A DNA stretch of 64,000 nucleotides from Alloprevotella sp. (GTDB lineage Bacteria; Bacillota; Clostridia; Oscillospirales; Oscillospiraceae): positions 10,038-74,037 of the forward strand of contig CAVEQW010000036.1 of NCBI GenBank assembly GCA_963618155.1, written 5' to 3'. The position numbers were made by a program, and so were the translations under genes. The notes under the pieces were generated by a model. The model was not told the DNA's origin. It saw only the letters and a list, made by a program, of their open reading frames with translations, and did no database searches. This document shows positions 25,239 through 41,459 of this stretch, one piece after another. Every line of letters starts with the position of its first letter. Within the stretch, counting starts at the first letter, position 1.

Positions 25239-25558
25239 GGGCGTATAGGCGCGCGGCCCGCCCCCTGTCCATGCCTTTGATTTATACGGTGCAGTCTATG
25301 GATACCTGTATTATAACACGGGACTTTATTCATTCCTACATTTGAATTGGTCATTTGGGGAGTTTCGTTATACAATCTGCCTAAAGGATGCATGGATGGA
25401 TGGAGCCTTGACAAATCGATAAATGATTTCATCGAACAGCGTTTATAGAACAGCTCCATGCTTCGCTCCGAATGAAAGGGCAAAACGGACGGTCGGGAGT
25501 CCGCGTTTGAAGATCTACCCCGAGCAAGTAACGTCAAAAAGATTAGGAGGAAACAAGC

Positions 25559-27217
25559 ATGAAAACGAAGAAACTCTTGATATGCATTGCACTGCTGACG
25601 ATCCTGTCGATGATGCTCACCGCGTGCGGGTCGAACAGCGCCGCCCCCGAAACGGCGACTGCTCCTGCGGAAAGCGGCACGGCGGCCGAGACCGCCGCCG
25701 AGGTCAAGACGGAAGAGACAGAAGAAAACGGCGAGCACGTTCTGAACGTTCTCTGCGGCGGCCAGCAGGTGTCGCTCGAGGTTCTTGAGGCCTCCACCGG
25801 CTCCTCGAACATCGTCAGCAGAGCGCTCTACGACTGCCTGTGGGATTACTATTCCGACGATCCCACCAACTATCACTTCAACATCGCCACCGGCTATGAG
25901 TACAACGACGATCAGACGGTCATGACCATCAAGCTCCGCGATGACGCCTGCTTCTCCGACGGCACGCCCATCACGGCCGAGGACATTCTCTTCACCCTCA
26001 ACTACTACGTCGGCACCACGCAGTCGATGGCTGTCGAGGTGATCGACTTCGAGAACTCCTATGTCGAGGATGACAAGACGCTCGTTCTGACCTTCACCGC
26101 GGCCAGCCCCGTCATCGCCGACAACTTTGCCGGCCTGAAGATGGTGAGCAAGGCGGCCTATGAAAACAGCGACGCCGACACGCTTGCCTTTGAGCCGGTC
26201 TCCAGCGGCGCCTACATGATCGAGACCTTCGAGACGGGCGAGCCGATCGTCCTTGTCAAGAACCCCTACTACTACGGCGCGGACGAGCTTTACTACGACA
26301 AGGTCGTTCTCACCTGCATCAGCAACGAGAACTCCCGCTACCTCACCTTCCAGAGCGACGACAGCTATGACATCATGACCATCAACTCGAACGAGTATGT
26401 CGCCATGATCCGCGACGGCGATACGGCGGGTGCGCACCTCCAGAGCACGGCGATGCAGTGCCTTGTCTATATGGCCTTCAACACCTATGACTACCCGCAG
26501 TTCGCGGACGTCAACATCCGCGCGGCCATTGCCCACGCGGTCGACTGGGAGACCATGATCTACGGCATCTGCGGCGACGACTACACGATCGCCACCTCCC
26601 CGCTGCTCCCCCATGTGAACTGGGCGTACTACAACACCGGCGTCTATGAATACGATCCCGAGCTCGCGGCCGAGTATCTGGCGGCGGCCGGATATGAGCC
26701 GGGCGAATTCTCCTTCACCTGCCGCATCGCGGACGAGGACTTCAACGCGGACATCTGCGAGGCCATGCAGGCTTACCTCAGCGAGGTCGGCATTACCATG
26801 AACATCAGCCTGTCCGACTCTCCCACCGTCCGTGCCGAGATCCGCAACAACGAGATCGAGTGCGGCATCGCCAAGGCCATGGGCAGCGGCGACCCGACGA
26901 GCGTTGTCCGCTCCAGAGTCAGCACGACCCCCGCAAACATCTACCACATGGTGGCTACCCCCGATCTGGGTGACACCTACCTGCTCGACCTGTTTGACGA
27001 GGCATCCTACTCCAACGAGGGCCGTGAGTACCGCATCGGCCTCTACGAAGAGGTCCAGCAGCTCATGTTCGACTACTACAACTGCTATCCCCTCTATGAG
27101 ACGAATGCATTCCTCGGCGTGCGGGATCAGCTCGGCGACATCGCGGCCGCCTGCGAGACCTCCATGGGCGACCTCTGCCTGAGCCAGCTCACGACGGAGC
27201 TTGTCGAGTCCTGGTGA
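25559..27217 (+). CDS. ABC transporter substrate-binding lipoprotein, family 5 (peptide/nickel/opine type)
   Basis: 552-aa ORF with lipobox MKTKKLLICIALLTILSMMLTACGS. The length and composition are typical of SBP_bac_5. It is followed by DppB/C/D/F-type genes. Confidence 0.8.
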   Translation: MKTKKLLICIALLTILSMMLTACGSNSAAPETATAPAESGTAAETAAEVKTEETEENGEHVLNVLCGGQQVSLEVLEASTGSSNIVSRALYDCLWDYYSDDPTNYHFNIATGYEYNDDQTVMTIKLRDDACFSDGTPITAEDILFTLNYYVGTTQSMAVEVIDFENSYVEDDKTLVLTFTAASPVIADNFAGLKMVSKAAYENSDADTLAFEPVSSGAYMIETFETGEPIVLVKNPYYYGADELYYDKVVLTCISNENSRYLTFQSDDSYDIMTINSNEYVAMIRDGDTAGAHLQSTAMQCLVYMAFNTYDYPQFADVNIRAAIAHAVDWETMIYGICGDDYTIATSPLLPHVNWAYYNTGVYEYDPELAAEYLAAAGYEPGEFSFTCRIADEDFNADICEAMQAYLSEVGITMNISLSDSPTVRAEIRNNEIECGIAKAMGSGDPTSVVRSRVSTTPANIYHMVATPDLGDTYLLDLFDEASYSNEGREYRIGLYEEVQQLMFDYYNCYPLYETNAFLGVRDQLGDIAAACETSMGDLCLSQLTTELVESW

Positions 27218-27318
27218 TTAAGGCAACGGATTTTTCCTGAATGACGCTGTGGCCACAATTCGATGGCTTTGCCCTTGGATTGTGGCCGTTTTTATATCGA
27301 AGCGGAAAGGGTGGAAGG

Positions 27319-28299
27319 ATGTTCAGATATTTTATCAGAAGACTGCTGCTCATCATACCGGTCCTGGTCGGCTGTGTAGTCATAGTCTTTACCATCAATT
27401 ACTTTTCTTCCGTAAGTCCCGCGGAAGTCATACTCTCCTCCAATGCCACCGATGAGGAGATCGCGGCCAAGGAGGAGGAGCTCGGCCTGAACGAGCCCTA
27501 TCTCACGCAGCTGGGAAATTATTTCTGGAATATCATCACGAAGTTTGATTTCGGCAAGTCGTATATCCACGGCGTCTCCGTGCGGGAGCTTATCCTGAAG
27601 AGAATGCCGGTCAGTATACGGATCGGTATCCTCGCCTCCGTGCTGGCCTCCCTGATCGGTATCCCCATGGGGATCCTGTCCGCGGTGCATCAGGGGAAGC
27701 CACTGGATTATACCTCCTCGTTCATCGCCATTCTCCTCGGCGCCTGCCCCGCGTTCGTGCTCTGCCTGTTCCTGCAGCTCTTCTTTACGGTCAAGCTGAC
27801 ATGGTTCCCCGTTACGGGCATCAGCACGTGGAAGGGTTATGTGCTTCCGATCGTGGCCAGCGCCATGATGCCCGTCGGCATGATCATGCGTATGACCCGC
27901 TCGTCCATGCTCGAGACGGTGCGCAAGGACTTTATCCGGACGGCAAGAGCCAAGGGCGTGCCGGAAAAGAGGGTCATCTGGAAGCATTGTCTGAACAACG
28001 CGCTGATCCCCATCGTGACGGTCGTGGGCAACAACTTCGGCGTGTCCATGACGGGCTCGCTGATAACGGAGAACATCTTCAACGTCCCCGGCCTCGGCTA
28101 TCTGATGAATTCGTCCATCGTTTCCAAGGACTATATCACGACGCAGGGCTGCGTCCTCTTTACCGCGTTCCTTGTCACCTTCTGCATCCTGCTCACCGAC
28201 ATGGTGTATGCGCTCGTTGACCCGCGCATCAAGGCGCAGTATCAGGGCATGGGACGGCGGCCGAAAAGAAGCAAGGAAAAGGAGGCGTCTGCGGCATGA
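27319..28299 (+). CDS. ABC transporter permease (DppB/OppB-like)
   Basis: Start MFRYFIRRLLLIIPVLVGCVVIVF is a typical OppB N-terminus. It has an EAA-type loop (RTARAKGVPEKRVIWKHCLNNALIP). Confidence 0.9.
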   Translation: MFRYFIRRLLLIIPVLVGCVVIVFTINYFSSVSPAEVILSSNATDEEIAAKEEELGLNEPYLTQLGNYFWNIITKFDFGKSYIHGVSVRELILKRMPVSIRIGILASVLASLIGIPMGILSAVHQGKPLDYTSSFIAILLGACPAFVLCLFLQLFFTVKLTWFPVTGISTWKGYVLPIVASAMMPVGMIMRMTRSSMLETVRKDFIRTARAKGVPEKRVIWKHCLNNALIPIVTVVGNNFGVSMTGSLITENIFNVPGLGYLMNSSIVSKDYITTQGCVLFTAFLVTFCILLTDMVYALVDPRIKAQYQGMGRRPKRSKEKEASAA

Positions 28300-29180
28300 T
28301 CGGGAAACTGAACAGAAAAGAAGCGATCCTGAATAAAGGTGCAACGCCGGGAAAGCTCTTTGTCAAGCGCTTTGCGAGAAACAAGGTCGCGGTCGCCGCG
28401 CTCGTTGTGATACTCTGCCTTTTCCTGATGGCGTGCTTTGCGCCGCAGATCGCGCCCTATGATTATTCCGCGATCGACATCAAGAACAAGCTGCAGTACC
28501 CGTCCGCCGGGCATCTGCTCGGAACGGACAACCTCGGAAGAGATATGCTCTCCCGCTGCATCTGGGGCGGACGCGTCTCCCTGCTGGTGGCGCTGTTCTC
28601 CGTCAGCATCAGCACCGTGGCCGCCATCGTCATCGGCTCCATCGCGGGCTACTTCGGCGGTCAGATCGACAACATCATCATGCGCATCTGCGACATCTTT
28701 CTGGCGATACCGGGGCTGGTGCTGGCCATGTGCGTATCCGCCGCGCTCGGTACGGGCATCGTGAACACCTGCATCGCCATGGCGATCACGGCGACGCCCG
28801 GCCTTGTCCGACAGATACGCGCCTCCATCATCCTGCTCCGCGACCAGGAATTCATCGAGGCCTCCAAGGCCTTCGGCGGGAGCAACGCCGGCATCATCAT
28901 CAAGCACGTCGTTCCGAACGCCTTTGCCCCCATGATCATCCAGATCGCCATGAGCCTCGGCAGCTGCATCATGCAGATCGCGGGAATGTCCTTCCTCGGC
29001 CTGGGCGTGCAGCCGCCCACACCGGAATGGGGCAACATGGTCTCCGCAGGGCGGGACTATCTGACGAAATTCTATCCGATGTTCCTGTATCCGGCGCTGT
29101 TTGTCGTTGTCACGATGCTGTCGTTCAACATGGTCGGCGATGGACTCCGCGATGCGCTCGACCCGCATATGAAGCGCTGA
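28296..29180 (+). CDS. ABC transporter permease (DppC/OppC-like)
   Basis: Its start overlaps the preceding stop. It carries LGTDNLGRDMLSR and an EAA loop (EASKAFGGSNAGIIIKHVVPN). Confidence 0.9.
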   Translation: MIGKLNRKEAILNKGATPGKLFVKRFARNKVAVAALVVILCLFLMACFAPQIAPYDYSAIDIKNKLQYPSAGHLLGTDNLGRDMLSRCIWGGRVSLLVALFSVSISTVAAIVIGSIAGYFGGQIDNIIMRICDIFLAIPGLVLAMCVSAALGTGIVNTCIAMAITATPGLVRQIRASIILLRDQEFIEASKAFGGSNAGIIIKHVVPNAFAPMIIQIAMSLGSCIMQIAGMSFLGLGVQPPTPEWGNMVSAGRDYLTKFYPMFLYPALFVVVTMLSFNMVGDGLRDALDPHMKR

Positions 29181-29202
29181 TGCAGCTTGGGAGGTCTTCA
29201 CT

Positions 29203-30192
29203 ATGAGTTTGTTGGAAATCCGCGGATTAAAGATCCAGTTCAACACGGACACAGGCGTGGTCAAGGCTGTAAACGGCGTGGATCTGGACATTGAAGAGGG
29301 CGAATCTCTGGGTCTCGTCGGCGAGACGGGCGCAGGGAAGACGACGACGGCGCTCGGCATTATGAACCTGATCGAGACGCCGCCCGGCGAGATATGCGAG
29401 GGCAGCATCCTGTATAATGGGCAGGATCTCCTCAAGATGAAGGAGAACGAGCTGCGTAAGCTGCGCGGCAACGAGATGTCCATGATATTCCAGGATCCGA
29501 TGAGCGCGCTGAACCCCATCATGACCATCGGGGATCAGATCGTCGAGGCGATACGCCTGCATCAGGACTGCTCGGCGCTGGAGGCGGAGCAGACCATGCT
29601 GTCGCTGCTCAACAAGGTCAGGATCGCGCCCGACCGCGCGCATGAGTATCCGCACCAGTTCTCCGGCGGCATGAAGCAGCGCATCGTGATCGCCATGGCG
29701 CTTGCGTGCAACCCGAAGCTGCTGATCGCGGACGAGCCGACGACGGCGCTGGACGTGACGATACAGGCGCAGGTGCTCTCGATGATAAACGACCTGAAAA
29801 AAGAGTTCAACACCTCGATGCTCATGATAACCCACGATCTCGGCATCGTCGCCGAATCCTGCACCAGAGTCGCCATCATGTATGCGGGCGAGATCGTCGA
29901 ATCCGGCGAGACGGCGCAGATATTCGACGAGACGGCGCACCCGTACACGGAGGCTCTGTTCGATTCCATCCCCTCTCTCAGCACCAAAACGGCCCGGCTT
30001 TCGCCGATACCCGGCCTGATGCCGGATCCGACGGAGCTGCCGTGCGGCTGCGTGTTCCACCCGAGGTGTACGCGGCGGATGGAGCAGTGTGATAAGGTCG
30101 TTCCGGAGGCGCATGAGGTGTCGCCGGGACACGTGGTAAAGTGTCACCTATACTGCGACGGAGCGCGTCCGGAGCATCGGGAGAGGATGTGA
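29203..30192 (+). CDS. ABC transporter ATP-binding protein (OppD/DppD-like)
   Basis: Walker A GETGAGKTT, signature FSGGMKQR, Walker B LLIADEPTTALD and a C-terminal oligopeptide-type extension with Cys residues. Confidence 0.92.
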   Translation: MSLLEIRGLKIQFNTDTGVVKAVNGVDLDIEEGESLGLVGETGAGKTTTALGIMNLIETPPGEICEGSILYNGQDLLKMKENELRKLRGNEMSMIFQDPMSALNPIMTIGDQIVEAIRLHQDCSALEAEQTMLSLLNKVRIAPDRAHEYPHQFSGGMKQRIVIAMALACNPKLLIADEPTTALDVTIQAQVLSMINDLKKEFNTSMLMITHDLGIVAESCTRVAIMYAGEIVESGETAQIFDETAHPYTEALFDSIPSLSTKTARLSPIPGLMPDPTELPCGCVFHPRCTRRMEQCDKVVPEAHEVSPGHVVKCHLYCDGARPEHRERM

Positions 30193-30197
30193 GCGGC

Positions 30198-31160
30198 ATG
30201 GCTGATCTGCTTGAAGTAAAGAACCTGAAGAAATATTTTAAAACCAACAGGGGCTATCTCCACGCGGTGGACAACGTATCCTTTTCCATCGCGGAGGGAC
30301 GGACGCTCGGCGTGGTCGGCGAGTCCGGCTGCGGCAAATCCACGCTTGGCCGCGCCATCCTCGGCCTGAACGAGGCGACCGGCGGCAGCATTTTCTTTGA
30401 GGGCAACGACATCACCCATGTGCGCGGCCGCAAACGGAAAGAGGTCAAGCAGAAAATGCAGATCATTTTCCAGGATCCCTATTCCTCGCTGGACGGCCGG
30501 ATGAACATCATGTCCCTCATCGAGGAGCCGCTTCGCATCTCCCGCCAGTACCGCGACAAGGCGTCGCTGGAAAAGCGCGTCTATGAGCTGATGGACACGG
30601 TGGGACTCTCGCGGCGCTATATGTACTCCTATCCGCACGAGCTGGACGGCGGGCGGCGGCAGCGCGTCGGCATTGCGAGAGCGCTGGCGATGAACCCGCG
30701 CTTTATCGTCTGCGACGAGCCGGTCAGCGCGCTCGATGTGTCCATCCAGGCGCAGATACTGAACCTGCTGATGGATCTCCAGGAGGCGTCCGACCTCACC
30801 TATATCTTCATCACGCACAACCTGTCCGTCGTGAAGCACGTTTCCTCGGACATCATGGTCATGTATATGGGCTGCATGGTGGAGAAGGCCGAGACGGAGG
30901 AGCTTTTTGCCCACCATCTCCACCCCTATACCAAGGGACTGTTTTCCGCGATCCCCATTCCCTCCCTCCATGTCCAGCGGAACCAGATATTGCTGGACGG
31001 CGAGGTCACCTCTCCCATCGACCCGAAGCCGGGCTGCCGCTTCTGCTCGCGCTGCGTGTATGCCAAGGACATCTGCCGCACGGAGGATCCGCAGATAGAA
31101 GAGGTGCTGCCGGGTCATTATGTGGCCTGCCACTGCGTGCGGGAGATCAACGATCTGTAA
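30198..31160 (+). CDS. ABC transporter ATP-binding protein (OppF/DppF-like)
   Basis: ATG 30198. Walker A GESGCGKST, signature LDGGRRQR, Walker B FIVCDEPVSALD. The upstream part of ORF 30141 overlaps the previous gene. Confidence 0.92.
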   Translation: MADLLEVKNLKKYFKTNRGYLHAVDNVSFSIAEGRTLGVVGESGCGKSTLGRAILGLNEATGGSIFFEGNDITHVRGRKRKEVKQKMQIIFQDPYSSLDGRMNIMSLIEEPLRISRQYRDKASLEKRVYELMDTVGLSRRYMYSYPHELDGGRRQRVGIARALAMNPRFIVCDEPVSALDVSIQAQILNLLMDLQEASDLTYIFITHNLSVVKHVSSDIMVMYMGCMVEKAETEELFAHHLHPYTKGLFSAIPIPSLHVQRNQILLDGEVTSPIDPKPGCRFCSRCVYAKDICRTEDPQIEEVLPGHYVACHCVREINDL

Positions 31161-31175
31161 CGGAGGGACGGCGGA

Positions 31176-31721
31176 ATGGCACGTCTGCATCGGGATTGGT
31201 ATCTGGAGGGCTGGCACCGGGAATACTGCGAGGTAAACGGGAGGCGGCGCACGGTGTGGAAATACACCGGCGAATACTTCCGCTTCGCGCTGTCCCCGAG
31301 GGGGCTTGCACGCCTGAAGGCGGCGTATCCGCTGCTCACACTCCTGATGCTGGGGCTCTGGTTTTATCTCTCCATGCTGCGCGTTGCAGGACGCGAGATG
31401 TTCTTTGTCGGAGCCGAGTGGTTTCTCTGCATACTCCCGTTCATGCCGCTGCTTTTGGGGGCGGCGAGCTTTCTGACCGTGCCGGAGCGAATGACCTATC
31501 GCGCCATGTACGGCTCCTATAAGCGCTGCAGATACGCTGGCCTTGTCCTGCTGGCGCTGCTCGGGCTGACGGCCGTCGGGGAGATCGTTTTCCTCTGCCT
31601 GTACGGCGCGCAGGTCGCGCTGCTGCGCGAAATTCTGTGGCTTGCGGGCGTTCTTGCCTGCCTTGCCTGCGATGTGGCCATCGTGCTGCTGCTGCGCAGA
31701 TACCCGCCGATGCTTGATTAA
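31176..31721 (+). CDS. Hypothetical ~4-TM membrane protein
   Basis: 181-aa ORF, 15 nt after oppF. It has about four hydrophobic helices after a basic, Trp/Tyr-rich N-terminus. No family was recognised. Confidence 0.55.
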   Translation: MARLHRDWYLEGWHREYCEVNGRRRTVWKYTGEYFRFALSPRGLARLKAAYPLLTLLMLGLWFYLSMLRVAGREMFFVGAEWFLCILPFMPLLLGAASFLTVPERMTYRAMYGSYKRCRYAGLVLLALLGLTAVGEIVFLCLYGAQVALLREILWLAGVLACLACDVAIVLLLRRYPPMLD

Positions 31722-31786
31722 GCAACGGATGCGGCGCTGCTCCGCGCCCGTCCGCGATGAACCCATACCAAAGGAGGCGCTTACAT

Positions 31787-33607
31787 ATGGATAAGAAGAT
31801 CTCACTGGAGCAGCTTCTGGAGCTGACCTACAGCAAGGGCAACCGGGGCGAGAACCCGGAGGCCAAGGCTCCGAGCACACCGGAGGAATACATCATCCAG
31901 AAGGGCGACGGCTTTGCCCTCGCGTCCATGCGGATCGGGAAGGTTCCCGGACTGGGGCTCACGCCCGACCAGACCATGAAAAACGTTCCGCTCTGGCTGG
32001 GCGAGACACCGGAGATACCGGAGCTTGCCTATGAGGAGGACTGCGAGCTGCTTGTCATCGGCGCGGGTCAGTCCGGCTCGGCGGCCACGCTTCGCGCGGC
32101 GGAGCTCGGCGCCAAGGTGCTGTGCCTCGAAAGCCAGACCTGGGAGGAATATGACGACTACGCCTGCGATATGGCGACCTACAACTCCCGTTATTTTCTG
32201 GAGCGCGGCGTTCCGGAATATGACCTCATGGAGATTTTTAACGAATATATGCGCAAGTCGCTGGGGCACGCTCACCCGAAGCTGGTGCGCGACTATGTGA
32301 CCCGGTCCGGCGAGATGCTCGACTGGCTCCTGGAGCATATTCCCGAGGAATACATCCGGCGCTATGCGCGGATCCACAACCGGAACGGGAACCCGCACTT
32401 TGACGGCTCCTCCTGCGGCTCCGGCAGCTTCATCGGCCTGCTTCAATGGCGCGACGAGGAGACGAATATCAATATGTGGCCGTTTGTCATGCGCTCGGTA
32501 CACGAGTCGGCAAGGCAGCACGGCGCAAAATTCAAATACGGCGCCCAGGCGATACGCCTGCTTCAGGACGAGAGCGGCCGCGTGACCGGCTGCATCGCCA
32601 GGGACATCGAAAACCGCTTTTTCAAGGTGAACAGCCGCGTCACGCTGCTTGCGGCGGGCGACTTCGGCGGGAACCCGGATATGCTTCTCGACCTGAGCGA
32701 CCGGATGCGGAACATCGCGTGGTCGTTCGGCCATGACCGAAGCTCCGTTGACAGCATTGTCTGCGGCGGACGCGACGGCTCCGGCATACGGATGGCGCTG
32801 TGGGCCGGCGCCACCATGGAGGTCGGCCCCCGCGCGCCGATGGGCGCCAACATGAACAAGCGCCCCGAGTTCCCCTTTGGCGGCATATGGCCGTGCTTCG
32901 GGCCGGACGGCAGGCGCTTCACCAACGAGTCCATCATCCATCACGGCGAGGATGGCGCCTCGGATATGCTCCCGCTGGGCGGCATCATGGCCGTGGTCAC
33001 GGATGCCAACTGGGACAGCTACTGCGAATATCAGGGCTACGGCCACGAGGTGATGGATCGCAGCAACCCCCATATGCTGGAGACTGTTCGCGCCGAAATG
33101 GCGAATTACAAGACCGGACGCGACGGCTTCCTGGTGCAGGAGTTTGCGCGCTACGGCAAGGAATACACGCGGATATTCGCCGCCGATACGCTCGAGGAGC
33201 TCGGCACGATACTCGGCTATGAGGGCGAGGCGCTGCAGGGCTTCCTGGACGAGGTGGCGCACTGGAACGAGATGTGCCACGCCGGAAAGGACACCGACTG
33301 GGGTATCGACCCCAAGTGCCTGTTCCCCATCGAGAAGGCGCCGTTCTTCGGCCGCTCGTCCGCGCTCCAGAACGGCAAGGTCTTCGGCGGCCTCTGCCAG
33401 CACGCCGGCATATGCACGGATGGAAGCTACCGCGTGCTGAACAAGGACAAGCACCCGCTGGGCGGGCTTTACGCGGTCGGCAACAACTGCGGCCAGCGCT
33501 ACGGCGTTCAGTACAGCACGCCGACCGGCGGCAACTGCTGCGGCTTCGCGCTGACGAACGGCTATGTCTCGGCGGAGTATATCTGCGGCGAGCTCCAAAA
33601 CGGATAA
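31787..33607 (+). CDS. FAD-dependent oxidoreductase, fumarate reductase / 3-ketosteroid-dehydrogenase flavoprotein family
   Basis: ATG 31787 follows aaaggagg. The dinucleotide fold LLVIGAGQSGSAATLRAAELGAKVLCLE sits about 95 aa into the protein. The C-terminal FAD motif is GGLYAVGNNCG...TNGYVSAEY. There is no signal peptide. Confidence 0.72.
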   Translation: MDKKISLEQLLELTYSKGNRGENPEAKAPSTPEEYIIQKGDGFALASMRIGKVPGLGLTPDQTMKNVPLWLGETPEIPELAYEEDCELLVIGAGQSGSAATLRAAELGAKVLCLESQTWEEYDDYACDMATYNSRYFLERGVPEYDLMEIFNEYMRKSLGHAHPKLVRDYVTRSGEMLDWLLEHIPEEYIRRYARIHNRNGNPHFDGSSCGSGSFIGLLQWRDEETNINMWPFVMRSVHESARQHGAKFKYGAQAIRLLQDESGRVTGCIARDIENRFFKVNSRVTLLAAGDFGGNPDMLLDLSDRMRNIAWSFGHDRSSVDSIVCGGRDGSGIRMALWAGATMEVGPRAPMGANMNKRPEFPFGGIWPCFGPDGRRFTNESIIHHGEDGASDMLPLGGIMAVVTDANWDSYCEYQGYGHEVMDRSNPHMLETVRAEMANYKTGRDGFLVQEFARYGKEYTRIFAADTLEELGTILGYEGEALQGFLDEVAHWNEMCHAGKDTDWGIDPKCLFPIEKAPFFGRSSALQNGKVFGGLCQHAGICTDGSYRVLNKDKHPLGGLYAVGNNCGQRYGVQYSTPTGGNCCGFALTNGYVSAEYICGELQNG

Positions 33608-33710
33608 GGCCGCGCCATGAACCGAAAGGGAGGGCGAAAAATCTGGCGGTACGCGCCCTCCTTCTCACGCACACTTACATACGCCGGCACCGCACGGCAG
33701 AGGTTTTCTC

Positions 33711-35720
33711 ATGAACGAACGTGTTTCCGCGCTCCTTTCCCCATTGAAAATAGGCAATGTCGTCCTGAAAAGCCGCTTGTGCTATCCCAACGCGTCCCCG
33801 CACTTTCTGCAGGGACCCGAGACATGGCCGTCCGATGAATTCCGTAATTTCTATGCGAACCTGGCCAAGAGCGGCGCGGCCTATATCGACCTCTGGGAGT
33901 GGAACAACCCGAAACAGCGCGTCGAGGGCGAGCAGGACAGCATCCGTATGCAGTGCTTTGACACGAGCGACCCCAGCACGACCAACTATCTCTCCGCGCT
34001 GGCGGACGAGGTGCATTTCTACGGCTCCAAGCTCTGCGTGGTCAAGAAGTTCACCTGGCCGGAGGGCTATAGCTTCGGCGGCGGCTTCCCCATCTATGCC
34101 CGTCCCGGCCTCCGGAGAGTCGAGACGAAGGCCGTGACCGAGGAAATGATACAGGAGGCTGTGGAGGATATCGTCCGGAGCCTCGAGATGTATAAGACCT
34201 GCGGCTATGACATGGTCTGCTTCATGATGGACTGGTTCCTGAATCCCAACGCCAACCACCGCACGGACAAATACGGCGCGCAGACGCCGGAGAATGCGGC
34301 GAACTTCATGAAGCTGCTTGCGACCCGGATCAAGGAGCGGCTGGGAAAGGATTTCCTGATCGAGGGGCAGATCCACGGCGAAGAGCACCGCGCGTTCTCC
34401 GTGGACGACATGGTGCGCTTCCTCAAGGCGCTGGAGGGCTATATCGACATCGTGTCCCTGCGCGAAAAGGATGCGCCGCTCAACCACCCGAGCGGATATA
34501 ACTTCAAGGAAAACGTATACCCCTGCGTGGAGTATGCCCGCGCGATCAAGGCCAGCGGCAACACGATGAAGGTGGCGCTGAACGGCGGCTTCCAGAACCC
34601 GGAGGTCAGCAACCGGTACATCGCGGACGGGAGCGCTGACCTCATCAGCCAGTCCCGCGGCTTCATCGCCGACTGCGATTATTTCCAGAAGATCAAGGAG
34701 GATCGCGTGGAGGACATCATCCCCTGCGTGCTCTGCAATAAATGCCACGGGCTCCTGCGCGGGCCGTGGATCAGCGTCTGCACCGTCAACCCGAAGTTCG
34801 GTATGCAGGCGAAAATGAAGCGGATGATCGACGCGCCCACCGGCGTGCGGAGGGTCGCGGTCATCGGCGGCGGCCCCACCGGCCTGCACGCGGCGATGTA
34901 TGCCGCTGACCGCGGCCATCAGGTGACGCTCTACGAAAAGACCGATAAGCTGGGCGGCCAGCTCTTCCACAGCGACTATGTTTCCTTTAAGTGGCCGCTG
35001 AAGCGCTTCAAGGAGTGGATGATCGCCCAGTGCGAGAAGCGGGACAACATTCAGATCGTCCTCAACTGCGCGCCCACGCGGGAGGAGCTGCTGGCGCAGG
35101 GCTATGACGCGGTCATCGCGGCGACGGGCGCTGTCCCCAATGTCCCGAACGTGGAGGGCATGAGAGACGCGGACGGGAAGCTTGCGCCCGGTCTTATGAC
35201 CTGCCTCGATGTTTACGGCCACGAGGACGAGCTCGGCAGGAACGTCGTCGTGATCGGCGGCTCCGAGACGGGCATCGAAACGGCGATGCACCTGACGGAA
35301 AAGGGTCACACCGTCCATGTTCTCAGCCGCCAGAAGGAGCTTGCGCCCGATGCGGGCAAGCTGCACGGCATCACGATGGCCTATGCGGAAAACCGTCCCG
35401 ACGGGACGGAGGATATGTTCGCCGCGTGGGAGATGTACGGCGCGCGGCGCGACCTCTGGGGCAGCGGGCTCAGCTGGACGCTCGAGGCGACCACGACGAG
35501 GGTGGAGCCGAAGCGCGTCACCTTTGTGACAAAGGACGGCGTGGAGCACGTTATGGACTGCGACACGGTCGTGATATCCGGCGGCATGAAGCCGTGCACG
35601 GACGAGGCGCTCGCCTATGCGGGAACGGCCAACCAGTTCATGGCCGTCGGTGACTGCGAGAAGCCGACCAACCTGCAGATAAACCTGCGCCGCGCGCTGG
35701 GAGCGGCCTCCCAGATCTGA
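33711..35720 (+). CDS. NADH:flavin oxidoreductase with Fe-S and FAD/NAD(P) domains (2-enoate reductase / 2,4-dienoyl-CoA reductase / BaiH family), copy 1
   Basis: 669 aa. It has an N-terminal TIM-barrel-like region, the 4Fe-4S motif CVLCNKCHG..(x)..C, and VAVIGGGPTGLHAAMYAADRGHQVTLYEK plus a second Rossmann motif VVVIGGSETGIE. Confidence 0.8.
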   Translation: MNERVSALLSPLKIGNVVLKSRLCYPNASPHFLQGPETWPSDEFRNFYANLAKSGAAYIDLWEWNNPKQRVEGEQDSIRMQCFDTSDPSTTNYLSALADEVHFYGSKLCVVKKFTWPEGYSFGGGFPIYARPGLRRVETKAVTEEMIQEAVEDIVRSLEMYKTCGYDMVCFMMDWFLNPNANHRTDKYGAQTPENAANFMKLLATRIKERLGKDFLIEGQIHGEEHRAFSVDDMVRFLKALEGYIDIVSLREKDAPLNHPSGYNFKENVYPCVEYARAIKASGNTMKVALNGGFQNPEVSNRYIADGSADLISQSRGFIADCDYFQKIKEDRVEDIIPCVLCNKCHGLLRGPWISVCTVNPKFGMQAKMKRMIDAPTGVRRVAVIGGGPTGLHAAMYAADRGHQVTLYEKTDKLGGQLFHSDYVSFKWPLKRFKEWMIAQCEKRDNIQIVLNCAPTREELLAQGYDAVIAATGAVPNVPNVEGMRDADGKLAPGLMTCLDVYGHEDELGRNVVVIGGSETGIETAMHLTEKGHTVHVLSRQKELAPDAGKLHGITMAYAENRPDGTEDMFAAWEMYGARRDLWGSGLSWTLEATTTRVEPKRVTFVTKDGVEHVMDCDTVVISGGMKPCTDEALAYAGTANQFMAVGDCEKPTNLQINLRRALGAASQI

Positions 35721-35791
35721 GCGCCGGTCACGCGGAGGCGGCCTCCGCAGAAGTAAGCTGTTGTATTTGTTGTATTTGAAGGAGAGCAAGC

Positions 35792-37816
35792 ATGAATCAC
35801 AGATATCAGACTCTTATATCCCCGTTCGTTCTGCCGAACGGCGTTGTCCTGCGTACGCGCATGGTGCATCCGAAATGCGCCCCCGACCAGAATCAGGGGC
35901 CGGAGGACTTTCCCACCGAGATGTTCATCCACTTCCACCGCGAGATGGCGCGGCGGGGCAATGCGCTGGTGATCGCGGATATCCGCGACACGCCCGCCGT
36001 GCGCCAGATGCCGGACTCCCACGACTTCGCGCATTCCTATACCTTCGATATCAAAAATCCGGCCGTGCAGAATTACGTCTGCCAGCTCGCGGACGACGTT
36101 CACTTCTATGGCTCCAAGGTGCTTGCCATGTGTATGCCCATGCTCCCCAGGGGGAAGACGCTCGGCGGAAAATCGCCCCGCTTCCGCCAGGAGGCCAGAG
36201 GCTTTGTCCCCATGCCGCCGATGGAGATGGCGACAAAGGAGGAGATAAAGGCCGCCATCGACGATGCGGTCGCCCGTGCGCTGAAGTTCAAGAGCTGGGG
36301 CTATGACGGCATCGCGGTACACATCTACAATGACCTGAACGCGGACATGAACATCCGCACCGACGAATATGGCGGGAGCACGGAAAACCGCTGCCGCATG
36401 ATGATGGAGCTGTTTGACGCGGTCAAGAGGGCGTGCGGAAAAAAATTCATCGTCCACGCGATGCTCAACGGCGTTCCCGTGGAGGCGGACCGCCGCCCGG
36501 AGGACGTCAGCCCGGGATACACGCTGGACGACGTGGTCACGTTCTGCAAGCTGGCCGAGGGGCGCTGCGATGTGATCACGGTGCGTGAGCTGAACATCAC
36601 CGAAAGCCACCCCACGGGCTATACCTTCGATAAGGAGCAGCATCGCTGCATCAATATGATCGCCTATCTGAAGGCGGCCGGGGTCAGGATCCCGCTTGCC
36701 GCCGCCGGTGCATTCCAGGATCCGGGGGAGATGGAACGGCTGCTGCGCGCCGGCGCCTGCGACCTTATCAGCATCGGCCGCGGCCAGTTCACCGACAAGG
36801 ACTATTTTGAAAAAATACTCGCGGAAAAGGGCGAGGAGATACGCCCGTGCATCCGCTGCAACCGCTGTCACGGACGCCGCCGCGCGCCGTGGACCTCCGT
36901 CTGCACGGTCAACCCGGAGTTCGGCTGCGAGCTGAAGGACCGGCATATGATACAGCCTGCGGCGGGCGGCAAGAAGGTCGCAGTCATCGGCGGCGGCCCC
37001 GCCGGTATGCAGGCGGCGATCACAGCGGCGGAGCGCGGTCACCGGGTCACGCTGTTTGAAAAGACCGGCTATCTCGGCGGGCAGCTTTTCCATGCGGATC
37101 ACTTCTCCTTCAAGTGGCCGTTCCGCGACTACCGCCTCTGGCTTATCGACGAGCTGGGGCGCAAGGGCGTCGAGGTGCGGCTCCACTGCGAGCCGACCCC
37201 AGAGGAGCTTTCCGCGGCCGCCTATGACGCGGTGCTTGCCGCGACCGGATCGGTGGCCGTCCTGCCCGAGGTCGAGGGGATGCACAAGCCGGACGGAAGT
37301 CCCGCACTGAAGACCTGTCACGACGTCATCGGCCACGAGGACGCGCTCGGCAAGAACGTCATCATGGTCGGCTGCTCGGAGACGGGCATCGAGACGGCCT
37401 GCTATCTCGCGCAGCACGGCCATAACGTGACCTGCCTCACCCGGCAGGATATGCTCGCCAAGGATGCCTCGCCGCTGCACAGCATCACGATCGCCTATGT
37501 GAAGCCCTGCCACCCGATGACCGGCGAGACCTATCTGGCGCACTACTGGGAGCGCTTCGACAGCATCCGCGGCATCACCAACGCGAACACCGTGAGGGTC
37601 AGCGAAAAGACCGTCACCTATGTGGATGCAGAGGGCACGGAGCACACGCTGGAGGGCGACGACGTCATCGTCTGCGGCGGTGTCCGCCCCTATCTGGAGG
37701 GCGCGCTGAAATACGCGTCTGCTGCGCCCTACTTCCGCCTGATCGGCGACGTGGACGGCGCCGGCGATATGCAGAGATCCATCCGCGGCGCCTTCGGCGC
37801 AGCCAGCCAGATCTGA
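35792..37816 (+). CDS. NADH:flavin oxidoreductase with Fe-S and FAD/NAD(P) domains (same family), copy 2, tandem paralog
   Basis: 674 aa and collinear with copy 1. Motifs are CIRCNRCHG..C, VAVIGGGPAGMQAAITAAERGHRVTLFEK and IMVGCSETGIE. It ends in the same GAASQI tail. RBS is gaaggagag. Confidence 0.8.
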   Translation: MNHRYQTLISPFVLPNGVVLRTRMVHPKCAPDQNQGPEDFPTEMFIHFHREMARRGNALVIADIRDTPAVRQMPDSHDFAHSYTFDIKNPAVQNYVCQLADDVHFYGSKVLAMCMPMLPRGKTLGGKSPRFRQEARGFVPMPPMEMATKEEIKAAIDDAVARALKFKSWGYDGIAVHIYNDLNADMNIRTDEYGGSTENRCRMMMELFDAVKRACGKKFIVHAMLNGVPVEADRRPEDVSPGYTLDDVVTFCKLAEGRCDVITVRELNITESHPTGYTFDKEQHRCINMIAYLKAAGVRIPLAAAGAFQDPGEMERLLRAGACDLISIGRGQFTDKDYFEKILAEKGEEIRPCIRCNRCHGRRRAPWTSVCTVNPEFGCELKDRHMIQPAAGGKKVAVIGGGPAGMQAAITAAERGHRVTLFEKTGYLGGQLFHADHFSFKWPFRDYRLWLIDELGRKGVEVRLHCEPTPEELSAAAYDAVLAATGSVAVLPEVEGMHKPDGSPALKTCHDVIGHEDALGKNVIMVGCSETGIETACYLAQHGHNVTCLTRQDMLAKDASPLHSITIAYVKPCHPMTGETYLAHYWERFDSIRGITNANTVRVSEKTVTYVDAEGTEHTLEGDDVIVCGGVRPYLEGALKYASAAPYFRLIGDVDGAGDMQRSIRGAFGAASQI

Positions 37817-37830
37817 GCCGGCACGTCAGG

Positions 37831-37925
37831 AACGAGCTTTGACAAGCTCAATTTGACCCGCTCGGCCGGTGTGAATCCGTCCGGCATAATGCAGAGGGGC
37901 TGTCTCATTGGAGACAGCCCGGAAA
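37831..37925 (+). repeat. Intergenic repeat element, copy A (core TTTGACAAGCTC..TTTGA..CGGCCG..GTGAAT.CGTCCGGCATAAT followed by a hairpin)
   Basis: About 65 nt align with 41245-41309 at roughly 80 percent identity by eye. It is followed by a 10-bp hairpin gggctgtctc/gagacagccc. Confidence 0.75.
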
Positions 37926-37937
37926 TACGCAGAATAA

Positions 37938-37970
37938 CGGCAGCCGGCTCTCGAGAAGAGTCGGCTGCCG
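37938..37970. terminator. Strong GC hairpin between the convergent flavoenzyme operon and spoIVB (probable bidirectional terminator)
   Basis: 13-bp stem cggcagccggctc/gagtcggctgccg with one G-T pair and a 7-nt loop. On the minus strand ttattct follows. On the plus strand the T-run is displaced about 15 nt. Confidence 0.55.
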
Positions 37971-38042
37971 GCCGGGAAAACGTTATTTTTCACTGTCCTC
38001 CTGACGGGGCGCGGTTCAAAAAATCGCCACAGTCGCTTTTTC

Positions 38043-39071
38043 TTATGCCGCGCAGGCTGTTGGCTGCATGGCGTCGGCGGCGAGCATACTCTCGATGGAG
38101 ATGCCGTAGCCGCGGCTGGCGTCGGAGACGAGAACGTGCGTCACCGCGCCGACGAGCTTGCCGTCCTGTATGATGGGCGAGCCGGACATTCCCTGCACGA
38201 TGCCGCCCGTGAGCGCGAGCAGCGCCTCATCCGTCACACGGAGATCGAGCATCTGCCCCTGCGCCCCGCTCATGCCGCGGCTGATCTCCACGCTGTAGCG
38301 CTCCACACCGCTGTCCGTCACGCTCGAGAGGATATAGGCCGGGCCCGCGTATATCTCGCTGTCGCTGGCCACGGGCAGCGCCTCGCCCTCCGCGGCGGCG
38401 TCCAGCGTGCCGAACACGCCGCAGAGTGTGTTGCTTTCGATGACCCCGATGGCCGCGCCCATGTCGAACACGCCTGCCAGCGCGCCGGGGCTGCCTGCCG
38501 CGCCCGGCTGTATATCCACGATGCGCGCCGGGCTGACGCTGCCGCTGCCGAGAGGCAGCACGGCGGCCGTCTGGCTGTCCGTGACCGCGTGGCCGAGAGC
38601 GCCGAAGCGTCCCGTGCCGGGGTCGTAATAGGTCAGCGTGCCCACACCGGCGACGCCGTCGCGCAGCCACAGGCCGAGCTTCGTTCCCTCGTCGCTTTGC
38701 GCCGGGGTCAGCTCGAGCCGCAGCGTTTCACCGCCGCGCTCGACCGTGATATCGACCGGCTCACCCGTCAGCCCCGCCGCCGCCTCTGCGAGACTGGCCG
38801 CCGTGTCCGTGGCCTGGCCGGAGAGCTCCGTGATGATGTCGCCGGGCAGTATGCCTGCGTCCTTGGCGGGCGATACGCTGCCGCCGCTGGTTGGCACCTC
38901 GGTCGTGTCCACAACGAGCACGCCGTCCGTATTCATCTGTATGCCCACTGCCGTCCCCAGCGGCACGAGCGCGTCCGCCGCCCACGCCCGTCCCGTCAGC
39001 GCCGCGCCGAGCAGCACCAGCATGACCGCCATGCGCGGCGGTGCTCTTTTTATTTTTGCCATAAAGCACAT
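38043..39071 (-). CDS. spoIVB: Stage IV sporulation protein B (S55 signalling peptidase)
   Basis: 342-aa ORF. It has an N-terminal anchor and a PDZ-like segment (GILPGDIITELSG). Peptidase motifs are GTLTYYDPGTGRFGALGH and GMSGSPIIQDGKLVGAVTHV. The start may be at 39071 or at the ATG at 39062. Confidence 0.9.
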   Translation of the reverse strand: MCFMAKIKRAPPRMAVMLVLLGAALTGRAWAADALVPLGTAVGIQMNTDGVLVVDTTEVPTSGGSVSPAKDAGILPGDIITELSGQATDTAASLAEAAAGLTGEPVDITVERGGETLRLELTPAQSDEGTKLGLWLRDGVAGVGTLTYYDPGTGRFGALGHAVTDSQTAAVLPLGSGSVSPARIVDIQPGAAGSPGALAGVFDMGAAIGVIESNTLCGVFGTLDAAAEGEALPVASDSEIYAGPAYILSSVTDSGVERYSVEISRGMSGAQGQMLDLRVTDEALLALTGGIVQGMSGSPIIQDGKLVGAVTHVLVSDASRGYGISIESMLAADAMQPTACAA

Positions 39072-39317: not shown

Positions 39318-39345
39318 GGATGGCTTTGTCGTATTTGCTTTGGAC

Positions 39346-40236: not shown

Positions 40237-40262
40237 AGGCGGGTGAACAGGAGGCATAGATC

Positions 40263-41441: not shown

Positions 41442-41459
41442 ATCTTTATGCGTTTTTTA

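What the first reader, a model, noticed from the sequence alone, without database searches (positions are those of the whole stretch)
25559..37816. 12-kb single-strand block joins a peptide/opine-type ABC importer to three large cytoplasmic flavoenzymes
Nine plus-strand genes have short gaps, from overlaps up to ~100 nt:
- A family-5 SBP, two permeases and two ATPases.
- An orphan ~4-TM protein.
- A fumarate-reductase/KstD-family FAD protein.
- Two tandem 2-enoate-reductase/BaiH-type Fe-S flavoproteins.

The block ends at a repeat element and a strong hairpin. No regulator gene is present in the block.

Established knowledge: these flavoenzyme families reduce or desaturate C=C bonds in enoates, steroids and bile acids, urocanate-type acids and cardiac glycosides.

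Inference: pairing them with an Opp/Dpp-type importer, rather than a carboxylate or steroid transporter, suggests uptake and reductive processing of an unidentified unsaturated, possibly peptide-like or amino-acid-derived, metabolite.
Basis: partly seen in the sequence, partly recalled or inferred. Interest (0 to 1): 0.62.

Follow-up and report, generated by a model that had tools for sequence, protein, structure and literature searches.

The report
Importer plus three cytoplasmic ene-reductases
A 12.5-kb gene module of a gut Clostridia-type bacterium encodes a peptide-family ABC importer, a previously undescribed small membrane partner and three cytoplasmic flavoenzymes; the module recurs in related genomes, so it most likely takes up an unknown unsaturated compound and reduces it inside the cell.

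Summary
Nine plus-strand genes lie at 25559-37816 with gaps of -4 to 103 nt. They encode a family-5 SBP lipoprotein, two permeases, two ATPases, a 181-aa 4-TM protein, a 606-aa FAD_binding_2 protein and two ~670-aa Fe-S flavoenzymes. All are under purifying selection.

The block is a discrete module. Window 25273-37816 is 86% identical in DNA to an Oscillospiraceae MAG whose flanks are unrelated. A third lineage (SBP only 67% identical) keeps all nine genes.

- The 4-TM protein is not an orphan. Its uncharacterised family (274 representative clusters, no Pfam or PDB match) follows this ABC subfamily in six lineages.
- A conserved hairpin plus U-run follows the SBP gene.
- In both sister lineages the module adjoins a caprolactamase-like HyuA/B pair, an M24 hydrolase, an unknown protein and a beta-propeller lactonase-like protein. 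These are absent from this window.
- Most FAD-protein homologues carry Tat signals; this one does not, which fits dependence on an importer.

More distant members of the SBP clade also adjoin Fe-S flavoenzymes (two lineages) or a nitroreductase (one lineage). Functional coupling is therefore supported. The substrate remains unknown, and BilR, BilV, BaiCD and KstD membership tests fail. No transcript data were found.

The parts
25279..25415 (+). Conserved upstream control region. It holds an 18-nt palindrome, CCTGTATTATAACACGGG (25305-25322), and a promoter-like site, TGGTCA-17-TACAAT (25348-25376).
   Evidence: About 90% identical to L001 although the left flanks are unrelated. Promoter-like hit; palindrome. 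No Rfam match. Not shared with L014.
25559..27217 (+). Family-5 solute-binding lipoprotein (552 aa). It has an LTAC lipobox and a low-complexity linker.
   Evidence: PF00496, E = 1.4e-63. All NCBIfam equivalogs score far below cut-off. Best PDB relatives reach only about 85 bits. The clade is rare: about 14 clusters at 34% identity or more.
27251..27297 (+). Hairpin (stem GGCCACAAUU / AAUUGUGGCC) followed by GUUUUUAUAU, directly after the SBP gene. Probably a partial terminator or mRNA stabiliser.
   Evidence: Fold. The stem and U-run are conserved in L001 and L014 although the loop differs and dS exceeds 1.
27319..28299 (+). OppB/NikB-type permease. The ORF opens at 27241; the likely start is ATG 27319.
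   Evidence: PF00528 + PF19300. Shine-Dalgarno site and start. Orthologue gene calls give 328 aa.
28296..29180 (+). OppC/NikC-type permease. Its start overlaps the previous stop by 4 nt.
   Evidence: PF00528 + PF12911.
29203..30192 (+). OppD-type ATPase.
   Evidence: PF00005 + PF08352.
30198..31160 (+). OppF-type ATPase (likely start ATG 30198).
   Evidence: PF00005 + PF08352. Start. Orthologues are 320-321 aa.
31176..31721 (+). 181-aa membrane protein with an N-terminal three-stranded sheet and four TM helices. It is a conserved accessory of this ABC subfamily and belongs to an uncharacterised family.
   Evidence: - No Pfam or NCBIfam hit.
- 274 representative clusters at E <= 1e-3.
- AF2 model with pLDDT 95 and no PDB fold match.
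- Homologues directly follow the OppF-like gene in L015/16, L019, L021 and L023, and follow the ER gene in L017.
- dN/dS is 0.11-0.26.
31787..33607 (+). Cytoplasmic FAD_binding_2 flavoprotein (606 aa) of the fumarate-reductase/KstD superfamily.
   Evidence: PF00890. GAGQSG motif at residue 92. Homologues of 632 aa or more have RRxFLK Tat signals; this protein has none. Identical protein P0001.
33711..35720 (+). Fe-S flavoenzyme ER1 (669 aa) of the 2-enoate reductase / FadH / BaiCD architecture.
   Evidence: PF00724 + PF07992. 4Fe-4S motif C339-x2-C-x2-C-x11-C357, GGGPTG at 386 and GGSETG at 516. Best PDB matches are NCR and FadH. The active-site loop CFMMDW is conserved in orthologues.
35792..37816 (+). 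Fe-S flavoenzyme ER2 (674 aa), a paralogue about 41% identical to ER1.
   Evidence: PF00724 + PF07992. 4Fe-4S motif C353-C371, GGGPAG at 400 and GCSETG at 527. PDB matches NCR and FadH. ER1/ER2 identity.
37831..37890 (.). 60-nt intergenic repeat, lying outside the shared module. The second copy is at 41244-41303.
   Evidence: 85% identity over 60 nt. Homology to L001 stops at 37816.
37897..37970 (.). Two hairpins (37897-37920 and 37938-37970) between the convergent ER2 and spoIVB genes. They probably serve as terminators for both.
   Evidence: On the minus strand the second hairpin is followed by UUAUUCU.

Best explanation
The block is one uptake-and-reduction module, probably transcribed from a single promoter near 25350-25376.

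- Capture and import (inferred from family). A surface-anchored family-5 binding lipoprotein captures a specific, non-standard ligand. An OppBCDF-type ABC translocator imports it, together with a conserved 181-aa 4-TM partner.
- Reduction (inferred). In the cytoplasm the compound is reduced at up to three C=C (or equivalent) positions. The two paralogous Fe-S flavoenzymes would carry electrons NAD(P)H -> FAD -> 4Fe-4S -> FMN -> substrate. The third reductase is a signal-less FAD_binding_2 protein.
- Downstream steps in sister genomes (shown as gene linkage). The same nine genes adjoin a caprolactamase-like ATP-dependent lactam hydrolase (HyuA/B type), an M24 amidohydrolase, a beta-propeller lactonase-like protein, an unknown protein and, in L014, a LysR regulator.
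- Substrate class (inferred, weakly). The preferred substrate is therefore an unsaturated heterocycle, lactam- or lactone-bearing, from host or diet. It would first be saturated and then, where those extra genes exist, ring-opened.
- What this window carries. It carries only the import-plus-reduction half. That half may serve as a cytoplasmic electron sink or as the first stage of catabolism.

Shown: gene content, module boundaries, conservation and linkage. Inferred: transcription as one unit, direction of catalysis, electron donors, and substrate class.
For: Gene families and cofactor motifs.

Discrete module:
- Window 25273-37816 is 86.5% identical to L001, and the flanks are unrelated.
- L001-type contigs place the module after polA-tsaBDE-AraC.
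- L014 keeps all nine genes in order, with SBP 67%, TM4 65%, FAD 86%, ER1 84% and ER2 79% identity.
- The L018 fragment shows ATPase-TM4-FAD.

Selection and transcription signals:
- Purifying selection acts on all genes.
- Internal terminator-like and promoter-like sites are no more frequent than in shuffled sequence. The hairpins in the intergenic gaps are not significant.

Deeper linkage of the SBP clade with reductases:
- L017: LysR and ABC genes, with a divergent ER + TM4 pair.
- L024: LysR, an NTF2-like gene, an ER and the SBP.
- L023: nitroreductase and SBP.

Localisation and extra enzymes:
- The FAD protein is a signal-less member of a mostly Tat-exported family. Background on exported versus cytosolic flavin reductases: bioRxiv 10.1101/2022.12.26.521950.
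- The HyuA/B-M24-unknown-lactonase set is linked to the module in two different arrangements: upstream on the same strand in L014, and downstream and convergent in L001. Its best NCBIfam matches are caprolactamase CapA and CapB.

Precedents for paired Fe-S flavoenzymes acting on one scaffold: BilR/BilV and OsrA/OsrB.
Against: - No transcript data exist for this locus.
- A conserved hairpin plus U-run after the SBP gene could end many transcripts there.
- The full nine-gene block is seen only in lineages whose enzymes are 79-92% identical, which is a shallow depth.
- FAD homologues at 55-66% identity are not next to this importer or to ER genes.
- Four of the seven other lineages of the transporter subfamily (L015/16, L019, L021, L022) show no flavoenzyme in the DNA held; some carry SnoaL-like and unknown proteins instead.
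- The FadH proton donor Tyr166 is not conserved in ER1 or ER2, and the ER2 loop varies between orthologues. The catalytic details are therefore unclear.
- The window lacks the lactamase set, so the substrate-class inference is borrowed from relatives.
Confidence: 0.6

Rival explanations
1. Coincidental neighbours. The ABC system would be an ordinary peptide, nickel or opine importer. The three flavoenzymes would be unrelated redox enzymes that sit beside it only because the genomes compared share recent ancestry or a common transferred island.
For: - The complete block is found only in closely related lineages.
- FAD homologues at 55-66% identity are not beside this importer or ER genes.
- Some members of the SBP clade have no flavoenzyme nearby.
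- The permeases and ATPases score best against Opp, Nik and Dpp models.
Against: - The module lies in three different genomic contexts with identical internal order.
- Two further deep lineages (SBP 34-39% identical) independently adjoin ER-type genes, and one adjoins a nitroreductase.
- In L017 the TM4 partner is co-oriented with the ER gene.
- The SBP fails every peptide, nickel and opine equivalog cut-off by a wide margin.
- There is no separate promoter or terminator signal at the junction.
Confidence: 0.12
2. A steroid or bile-acid-type redox pathway, similar to bai or Osr. The FAD_binding_2 protein would act as a KstD-like desaturase or delta-1 reductase. ER1 and ER2 would act as BaiCD/BaiH- or OsrA/OsrB-like delta-4, delta-6 or delta-1 reductases on an imported conjugated steroid or bile acid. 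The amide or other conjugate would explain the peptide-family importer.
For: - Weak similarity of the FAD protein to KstD and to 3-ketosteroid delta-4(5-alpha)-dehydrogenase.
- Weak similarity of ER1 and ER2 to BaiCD.
- OsrA and OsrB are paired Fe-S flavoenzymes acting on one steroid.
- NTF2/SnoaL-like proteins, the fold of ketosteroid isomerase (my own knowledge), recur next to this transporter subfamily.
- M24 and lactamase-type amidohydrolases occur in sister loci.
Against: - All steroid-related model scores are far below cut-off: KstD 61-66 bits against 788-789, BaiCD 188 and 233 bits against 825.
- No hydroxysteroid dehydrogenase, CoA ligase or CoA transferase gene lies in the block.
- No known steroid importer belongs to the family-5 SBP type (my own knowledge).
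- A caprolactamase-like enzyme has no obvious role on steroids.
Confidence: 0.13
3. The FAD_binding_2 protein is not a substrate reductase. Instead it would be an oxidase or dehydrogenase, or a redox partner. The module would then perform net isomerisation or dismutation rather than sequential reduction.
For: - The protein has no NAD(P)H-binding, FMN_bind or haem domain that could supply electrons.
- In a low-confidence phmmer alignment, the Fcc3 substrate-binding residues His504 and Arg545 align to Leu and Pro.
Against: Exported homologues with a Tat signal, some also with an FMN_bind domain, have the architecture of respiratory reductases, and the catalytic core is 55-60% identical to theirs.
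Confidence: 0.1

Closest known systems
BilR / BilV bilirubin reductase pair of gut Firmicutes (PMC10769871; PMC13252198; bioRxiv 10.64898/2026.06.10.731317)
   Same: Two neighbouring paralogous Fe-S flavoenzymes share one architecture (TIM-barrel FMN domain, 4Fe-4S, FAD/NAD(P)H domains). They differ in one active-site loop and reduce different C=C bonds of one scaffold. BilR-long is the best NCBIfam hit for both ER1 and ER2.
   Different: - Scores of 221 and 255 bits fall far below the 750-bit cut-off.
- Neither the HGDR (BilR) nor the AHAH (BilV) motif is present. The loops read CFMMDW (ER1) and AVHIYN (ER2).
- The passages read did not mention a dedicated ABC importer or a FAD_binding_2 partner for BilR/BilV.
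OsrA / OsrB steroid reductases of Clostridium steroidoreducens (PMC11482826), and BaiCD / BaiH of the bai operon
   Same: Paired cytoplasmic Fe-S flavoenzymes of the FadH family with complementary regiospecificity on one substrate. They are substrate-inducible and belong to gut Clostridia.
   Different: - The BaiCD equivalog scores only 188 and 233 bits against a cut-off of 825.
- There is no HSDH/SDR partner in the block.
- From my own knowledge, bai uses the BaiG MFS transporter, not an SBP-dependent ABC system.
Extracytosolic flavin reductases of Eggerthellaceae and Erysipelotrichaceae, such as UrdA, cinnamate reductases and Cgr2 (bioRxiv 10.1101/2022.12.26.521950)
   Same: The FAD_binding_2 catalytic core is 54-58% identical to Tat-signal proteins of Adlercreutzia, Eggerthella and Enteroscipio.
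   Different: - The window protein has no Tat signal, lipobox or FMN_bind domain, so it must work in the cytoplasm.
- It sits in an operon with an importer.
- None of the close homologues has a published substrate that I could find.
PepT-family (Opp/Dpp/Nik/opine, TC 3.A.1.5) ABC importers
   Same: Five canonical components with the family's diagnostic domains: SBP_bac_5, OppC_N and oligo_HPY.
   Different: - The SBP belongs to a rare clade with no equivalog match.
- A sixth conserved 4-TM protein accompanies the system in six lineages. To my knowledge this has not been described for the family.
Caprolactamase CapAB / 5-oxoprolinase-type ATP-dependent lactam hydrolases (in sister loci only)
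   Same: The L014 and L001 HyuA/B proteins match CapA (574 bits) and CapB (292 bits) best.
   Different: Both scores are below the 1000-bit cut-offs. The genes are not present in this window.

Membership tests
PepT-family ABC importer (Opp/Dpp/Nik type) | Family-5 extracellular solute-binding protein with an export or lipoprotein signal | tested here: met
   PF00496, 215.7 bits. Signal peptide with LTAC lipobox.
PepT-family ABC importer (Opp/Dpp/Nik type) | Two BPD_transp_1 permeases (OppB and OppC types), and two ATPases carrying the oligo_HPY C-terminal domain | tested here: met
   PF00528 + PF19300; PF00528 + PF12911; PF00005 + PF08352 twice.
OppA / DppA / NikA / GsiB / CntA binding-protein equivalogs | Score at or above the NCBIfam curated cut-off | tested here: not met
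   The best hit is TIGR04028 at 91 bits against 468.5. Others: Opp4A 89 against 650, NikA 77 against 393, DppA 44 against 1005, CntA 27.5 against 800.
Fe-S flavoenzymes of the 2-enoate reductase / FadH family | N-terminal Oxidored_FMN TIM barrel, a C-x2-C-x2-C-x11-C 4Fe-4S motif, and C-terminal FAD and NAD(P)H dinucleotide-binding folds | tested here: met
   PF00724 + PF07992 in both proteins. Motif positions. PDB matches NCR (6QKG) and FadH (1PS9).
Fe-S flavoenzymes of the 2-enoate reductase / FadH family | FadH-type proton donor (Tyr166 of E. coli FadH) | tested here: not met
   In the phmmer alignment the position is Phe in ER1. Both ERs have a loop 6 residues shorter than FadH. Residue numbering is from my own knowledge of 1PS9.
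Bilirubin reductase BilR | Conserved HGDR active-site motif, and the NCBIfam bili_reduct_long cut-off of 750 bits | tested here: not met
   Scores are 221 bits (ER1) and 255 bits (ER2). The loops are CFMMDW and AVHIYN, with no HGDR.
Bilinoid vinyl reductase BilV | Conserved AHAH motif in the expanded active-site loop | tested here: not met
   AHAH is absent from ER1, ER2 and their orthologues.
BaiCD bile-acid Fe-S flavoenzyme (NF041087) | Equivalog cut-off of 825 bits | tested here: not met
   188 and 233 bits.
Fumarate / urocanate-type flavin reductases (FAD_binding_2) | FAD_binding_2 domain with an N-terminal GxGxxG motif | tested here: met
   PF00890, 87.7 bits. GAGQSG at residue 92.
Fumarate / urocanate-type flavin reductases (FAD_binding_2) | Substrate-carboxylate-binding His and Arg (Fcc3 His504 and Arg545) | tested here: inconclusive
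   They align to Leu and Pro in a weak phmmer alignment of 20.7 bits. The catalytic Arg402 region did not align.
Respiratory (extracytosolic) flavin reductases | Sec or Tat signal peptide, often with an FMN_bind or cytochrome domain | tested here: not met
   No signal and no extra domain are present. Homologues of 632 aa or more have RRxFLK signals.
3-ketosteroid delta-1-dehydrogenase KstD, and vinyl phenol reductase VprA | NCBIfam equivalog cut-offs (788-789 bits for KstD, 600 bits for VprA) | tested here: not met
   KstD models score 61-66 bits; VprA scores 110 bits.
Single operon | One transcript spanning all nine genes | not testable with these tools
   No RNA run holds the locus. Sequence signals are compatible with one unit, but there is a conserved hairpin plus U-run after the SBP gene.

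The most novel reading that the evidence does not exclude
The 181-aa 4-TM protein defines a so-far undescribed six-component subfamily of peptide-type ABC importers. This subfamily would have been recruited repeatedly in gut Clostridia to feed non-peptide, host- or diet-derived heterocycles to cytoplasmic reductases.

In the Oscillospiraceae version, three ene-reductases combine with an ATP-dependent lactamase. That combination would form a pathway that saturates unsaturated lactam rings and then opens them. One possible substrate class is bilin-type pigments. The enzyme that converts urobilinogen to stercobilinogen is still unidentified (bioRxiv 10.64898/2026.06.10.731317).

The probability of 0.12 applies to the whole reading. 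The subfamily claim alone is roughly 0.35 and the bilin substrate roughly 0.04.
Probability: 0.12. Interest if true: 0.8.

Novelty: new variant of a known kind. Interest (0 to 1): 0.5.

Why it matters
Gut Clostridia transform many host and dietary compounds using Fe-S flavoenzymes. Recent examples are BilR/BilV, OsrA/OsrB and Bai. How substrates reach these cytoplasmic enzymes is rarely known.

This locus offers three things:
- It ties a specific high-affinity importer to three reductases, and the binding protein can be used as bait to identify the substrate.
- It exposes a conserved, uncharacterised membrane partner of a peptide-family ABC transporter.
- Through sister genomes, it points to a larger 14-15-gene pathway with a lactam-hydrolase step.

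If the ligand is found, three orphan reductases and an orphan transporter subfamily would be assigned at once.

Tried and rejected
- RNA evidence. Two run searches found only small metagenome-type runs holding fragments, and no RNA run. The transcription unit remains unverified.
- Riboswitch or leader. Rfam at a permissive threshold over 25200-38100 gave nothing.
- Mobile-element signatures. There are no direct or inverted repeats of 8 nt or more at the two module boundaries. GC differs only modestly (61.1% against 64.0%) and GC3 is like that of housekeeping genes. No integrase or transposase gene lies in the flanks.
- BilR, BilV, BaiCD, KstD and VprA membership. All were rejected on score and motif.
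- Fold search of the 4-TM model against the PDB. It returned only generic helical bundles, E >= 0.2.
- Word-indexed homologue search for the 4-TM protein. It found only close relatives. The exhaustive profile search was needed.
- Literature searches for a hydantoinase + enoate reductase cluster, and for cytoplasmic versions of the Eggerthella reductases, found nothing relevant.
- An error of mine. In one search I scanned plus-strand ORFs downstream of the module in L001 and found nothing. The real genes are on the minus strand and were recognised only.
- The upstream promoter and palindrome of the window and L001 are not shared with L014, so they cannot be used as a family-wide operator.

Full report
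**1. What is there**

The region 25559-37816 carries nine plus-strand ORFs. Pfam and NCBIfam assign them as follows:
- A family-5 solute-binding protein.
- An OppB/NikB-type permease and an OppC/NikC-type permease.
- Two ATPases with the oligo_HPY tail that marks the peptide/nickel/opine (PepT) ABC family.
- A 181-aa protein with no family.
- A FAD_binding_2 protein.
- Two Oxidored_FMN + Pyr_redox_2 proteins.

The SBP has a lipoprotein signal (LTAC).

Three start codons need correcting, based on Shine-Dalgarno sites and orthologue gene calls:
- Permease B: 27319.
- ATPase F: 30198.
- FAD protein: 31787. This gives 606 aa, identical to database protein P0001.

Both large flavoenzymes carry the full cofactor signature of the FadH / 2-enoate-reductase family. 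This comprises C-x2-C-x2-C-x11-C, GGGPxG and a second dinucleotide fold. Their nearest solved relatives are 2-naphthoyl-CoA reductase and FadH.

None of the three enzymes has an N-terminal hydrophobic or Tat segment.

The flanks are housekeeping genes: ileS, lspA, rluD and lysA upstream, and spoIVB downstream on the opposite strand.

**2. It is a discrete, conserved module**

- An Oscillospiraceae MAG (L001) matches window 25273-37816 at 86.5% DNA identity. The match starts 35 nt after the lysA stop and ends exactly at the ER2 stop codon. The flanks are unrelated.
- In that species the module lies after polA-tsaBDE, an AraC regulator and an ABC-2 exporter. It is found on 23 contigs read from the collection.
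- A third lineage (L014) keeps all nine genes in the same order. Its SBP is only 67% identical and its 4-TM protein 65% identical.
- A short metagenome contig (L018) shows the ATPase-4TM-FAD junction again.
- All genes evolve under purifying selection: dN/dS is 0.05-0.26 against L001 and 0.055-0.23 against L014, where dS exceeds 1.
- The boundaries carry no flanking repeats or mobility genes, and composition differs only slightly from the flanks.

**3. Transcription signals**

- About 137 nt upstream (25279-25415) is roughly 90% conserved with L001. It contains an 18-nt palindrome and a promoter-like TGGTCA-17-TACAAT site. No Rfam family matches.
- Inside the block, promoter-like and terminator-like hits are no more frequent than in shuffled sequence.
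- The hairpins in the 65-, 103- and 71-nt gaps around the flavoenzyme genes are not significant: z-scores are -0.5, -1.3 and +0.8, and none has a U-run.
Its stem and U-run are conserved in L001 and L014 although the loop differs. This looks like the partial terminator or stabiliser that often gives binding-protein mRNA an excess in ABC operons. That interpretation is inference from general knowledge.
- The block ends at a 60-nt repeat with a second copy at 41244-41303, and at two strong hairpins shared with the convergent spoIVB gene. These lie outside the shared module.
- No public RNA run holds the locus, so the single-transcript model is unproven.

**4. The 4-TM protein is not an orphan**

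- An exhaustive profile search finds 274 representative clusters, nearly all 175-215 aa. None matches Pfam consistently.
- AlphaFold gives a confident model (pLDDT 95) with a small N-terminal sheet and four TM helices. It has no PDB counterpart.
- In every divergent context recovered, a homologue accompanies an Opp-like system of the same SBP clade:
  - It lies directly after the second ATPase gene in L015/L016, L019, L021 and L023.
  - It lies after the ER gene, divergent from the ABC genes, in L017.
- It is therefore best read as a sixth, conserved component of this transporter subfamily.

**5. How deep is the importer-flavoenzyme linkage?**

For the FAD protein the linkage is shallow:
- Homologues at 59-66% identity (L011-L013) and at 54-58% identity (Lachnospiraceae, Eggerthellaceae; L002-L010) are not beside this importer or ER genes.
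- Two of them do have other transporters next to them: an SBP_bac_3 ABC system in L012 and an MFS transporter in L013.

For the SBP clade the picture is different. The clade is rare, with about 14 clusters at 34% identity or more:

| Locus | SBP identity | Neighbours |
|---|---|---|
| L017 | 39% | LysR gene; divergent ER + 4-TM pair |
| L024 | 34% | LysR; NTF2/PhzAB-like gene and an ER immediately upstream on the same strand |
| L023 | 44% | Nitroreductase directly upstream |
| L015/16, L022, L021 | 44%, 43%, 28% | L015/16 and L022: a LysR gene and a ~314-aa unknown protein; L015/16 and L021: SnoaL-like proteins and a shared 640-673-aa unknown protein |
| L019 | 39% | 3-hydroxyacyl-CoA-dehydrogenase-type gene, radical-SAM gene and Zn-dependent alcohol dehydrogenase |

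The L024 ER is 46% identical to the L017 ER.

Flavin reductases thus recur next to this importer subfamily in four of eight distinct lineages, and three of those four have Fe-S flavoenzymes. This supports functional coupling rather than chance adjacency.

**6. Cytoplasmic location fits the need for an importer**

- Homologues of the FAD protein that are 632 aa or longer start with RRxFLK twin-arginine signals. Many also have a lipobox, and some carry an FMN_bind domain. This is the architecture of extracytosolic respiratory flavin reductases (bioRxiv 10.1101/2022.12.26.521950).
- The window protein begins directly at the conserved core.
- An exported reductase needs no importer, whereas a cytoplasmic one does.

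**7. A larger system in sister genomes**

- In L014 the nine genes are preceded on the same strand by HyuA- and HyuB-type proteins, an M24 hydrolase, an unknown 386-aa protein and a seven-bladed lactonase-like protein. A divergent LysR gene lies beside them.
- In L001 the same five genes (62-91% identical) lie immediately downstream of ER2 on the opposite strand.
- Two different arrangements of the same partners argue for a functional association.
- The best NCBIfam matches of the HyuA/B pair are the caprolactamase subunits CapA and CapB, both below cut-off.
- None of these genes is in the 64-kb window.
- This is the basis for my tentative substrate class: an unsaturated lactam- or lactone-bearing heterocycle that is first saturated and then ring-opened. 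It is inference, and it is borrowed from relatives.

**8. Comparison with known systems**

- The closest functional analogies are pairs of Fe-S flavoenzymes that attack different double bonds of one scaffold: BilR/BilV, OsrA/OsrB and BaiCD/BaiH.
- Membership of these families fails:
  - bili_reduct_long scores 221 and 255 bits against a cut-off of 750.
  - BaiCD scores 188 and 233 bits against 825.
  - Neither HGDR nor AHAH is present. The corresponding loops are CFMMDW in ER1, conserved in its orthologues, and AVHIYN in ER2, which reads AIWISS in L014.
- The FAD protein fails the KstD and VprA cut-offs. In a weak alignment it lacks the Fcc3 carboxylate-binding His and Arg.
- The SBP fails every peptide, nickel and opine equivalog. 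Its nearest solved relatives score only about 85 bits.

**9. Verdict**

It has not been tested biochemically or transcriptionally.
- 'Peptide-like' is unsupported.
- The locus is a new variant of a familiar kind of catabolic or reductive gene cluster. Its two new elements are the conserved 4-TM transporter partner and the link to a lactamase-type set in relatives.
- Interest is moderate. It is a good, tractable lead for assigning orphan gut flavoenzymes and a transporter subfamily, but nothing here contradicts current understanding.

Noticed in passing
window 37831-37890 and 41244-41303: A 60-nt intergenic repeat (85% identical), each copy lying just after the end of a plus-strand gene. It contains TTGACAAGCTC and ends in GGCATAAT. 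Its function is unknown, and only two copies occur in the window.
   Followed up: partly
window 27251-27297; L001 about 4990-5035; L014 about 10828-10873: A conserved stem (GGCCACAAUU / AAUUGUGGCC) plus U-run between the SBP and permease genes. The loop sequence differs in L014 while the stem is kept, which suggests selection on the structure.
   Followed up: partly
L001 15756-21413 (minus strand); L014 472-8951: A set comprising a caprolactamase-like HyuA/HyuB pair, an M24 hydrolase, an unknown 386-aa protein and a beta-propeller lactonase-like protein. It is linked to the nine-gene module in two different arrangements and is absent from the window.
   Followed up: partly
L015 3503-7583 and L021 464-2392, 10535-11984: A second enzyme set recurs next to the same ABC + 4-TM transporter subfamily. 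It comprises a 640-673-aa protein with no Pfam family (30% identical between the two loci) and several SnoaL_4 / NTF2-like proteins. L024 has a PhzA/B-like 315-aa protein next to its ER gene.
   Followed up: partly
L011 and L012 (FAD homologues at 63-66% identity): The stand-alone cytoplasmic FAD homologues share a conserved neighbourhood (QueT, WYL regulator, holB, PSP1) and a divergent 237-241-aa gene with no family. In L012 an SBP_bac_3 amino-acid-type ABC importer follows directly; in L013 an MFS transporter follows.
   Followed up: no
window 25184-26947, 30144-31880, 33675-35789, 35615-37645 (minus strand): Long antisense ORFs (578-704 aa) overlap the real genes. They have no independent support and are the usual by-product of 61-63% GC coding sequence.
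   Followed up: no
window 6721-6899 (minus strand): A tRNA-Tyr(GTA) and tRNA-Thr(TGT) pair. These are the only Rfam or ARAGORN hits in the 64-kb window.
   Followed up: no
window 39340-40266 and 41418-42389: Two plus-strand ORFs of 308 and 323 aa with no Pfam family flank an aldose 1-epimerase gene, downstream of spoIVB.
   Followed up: no
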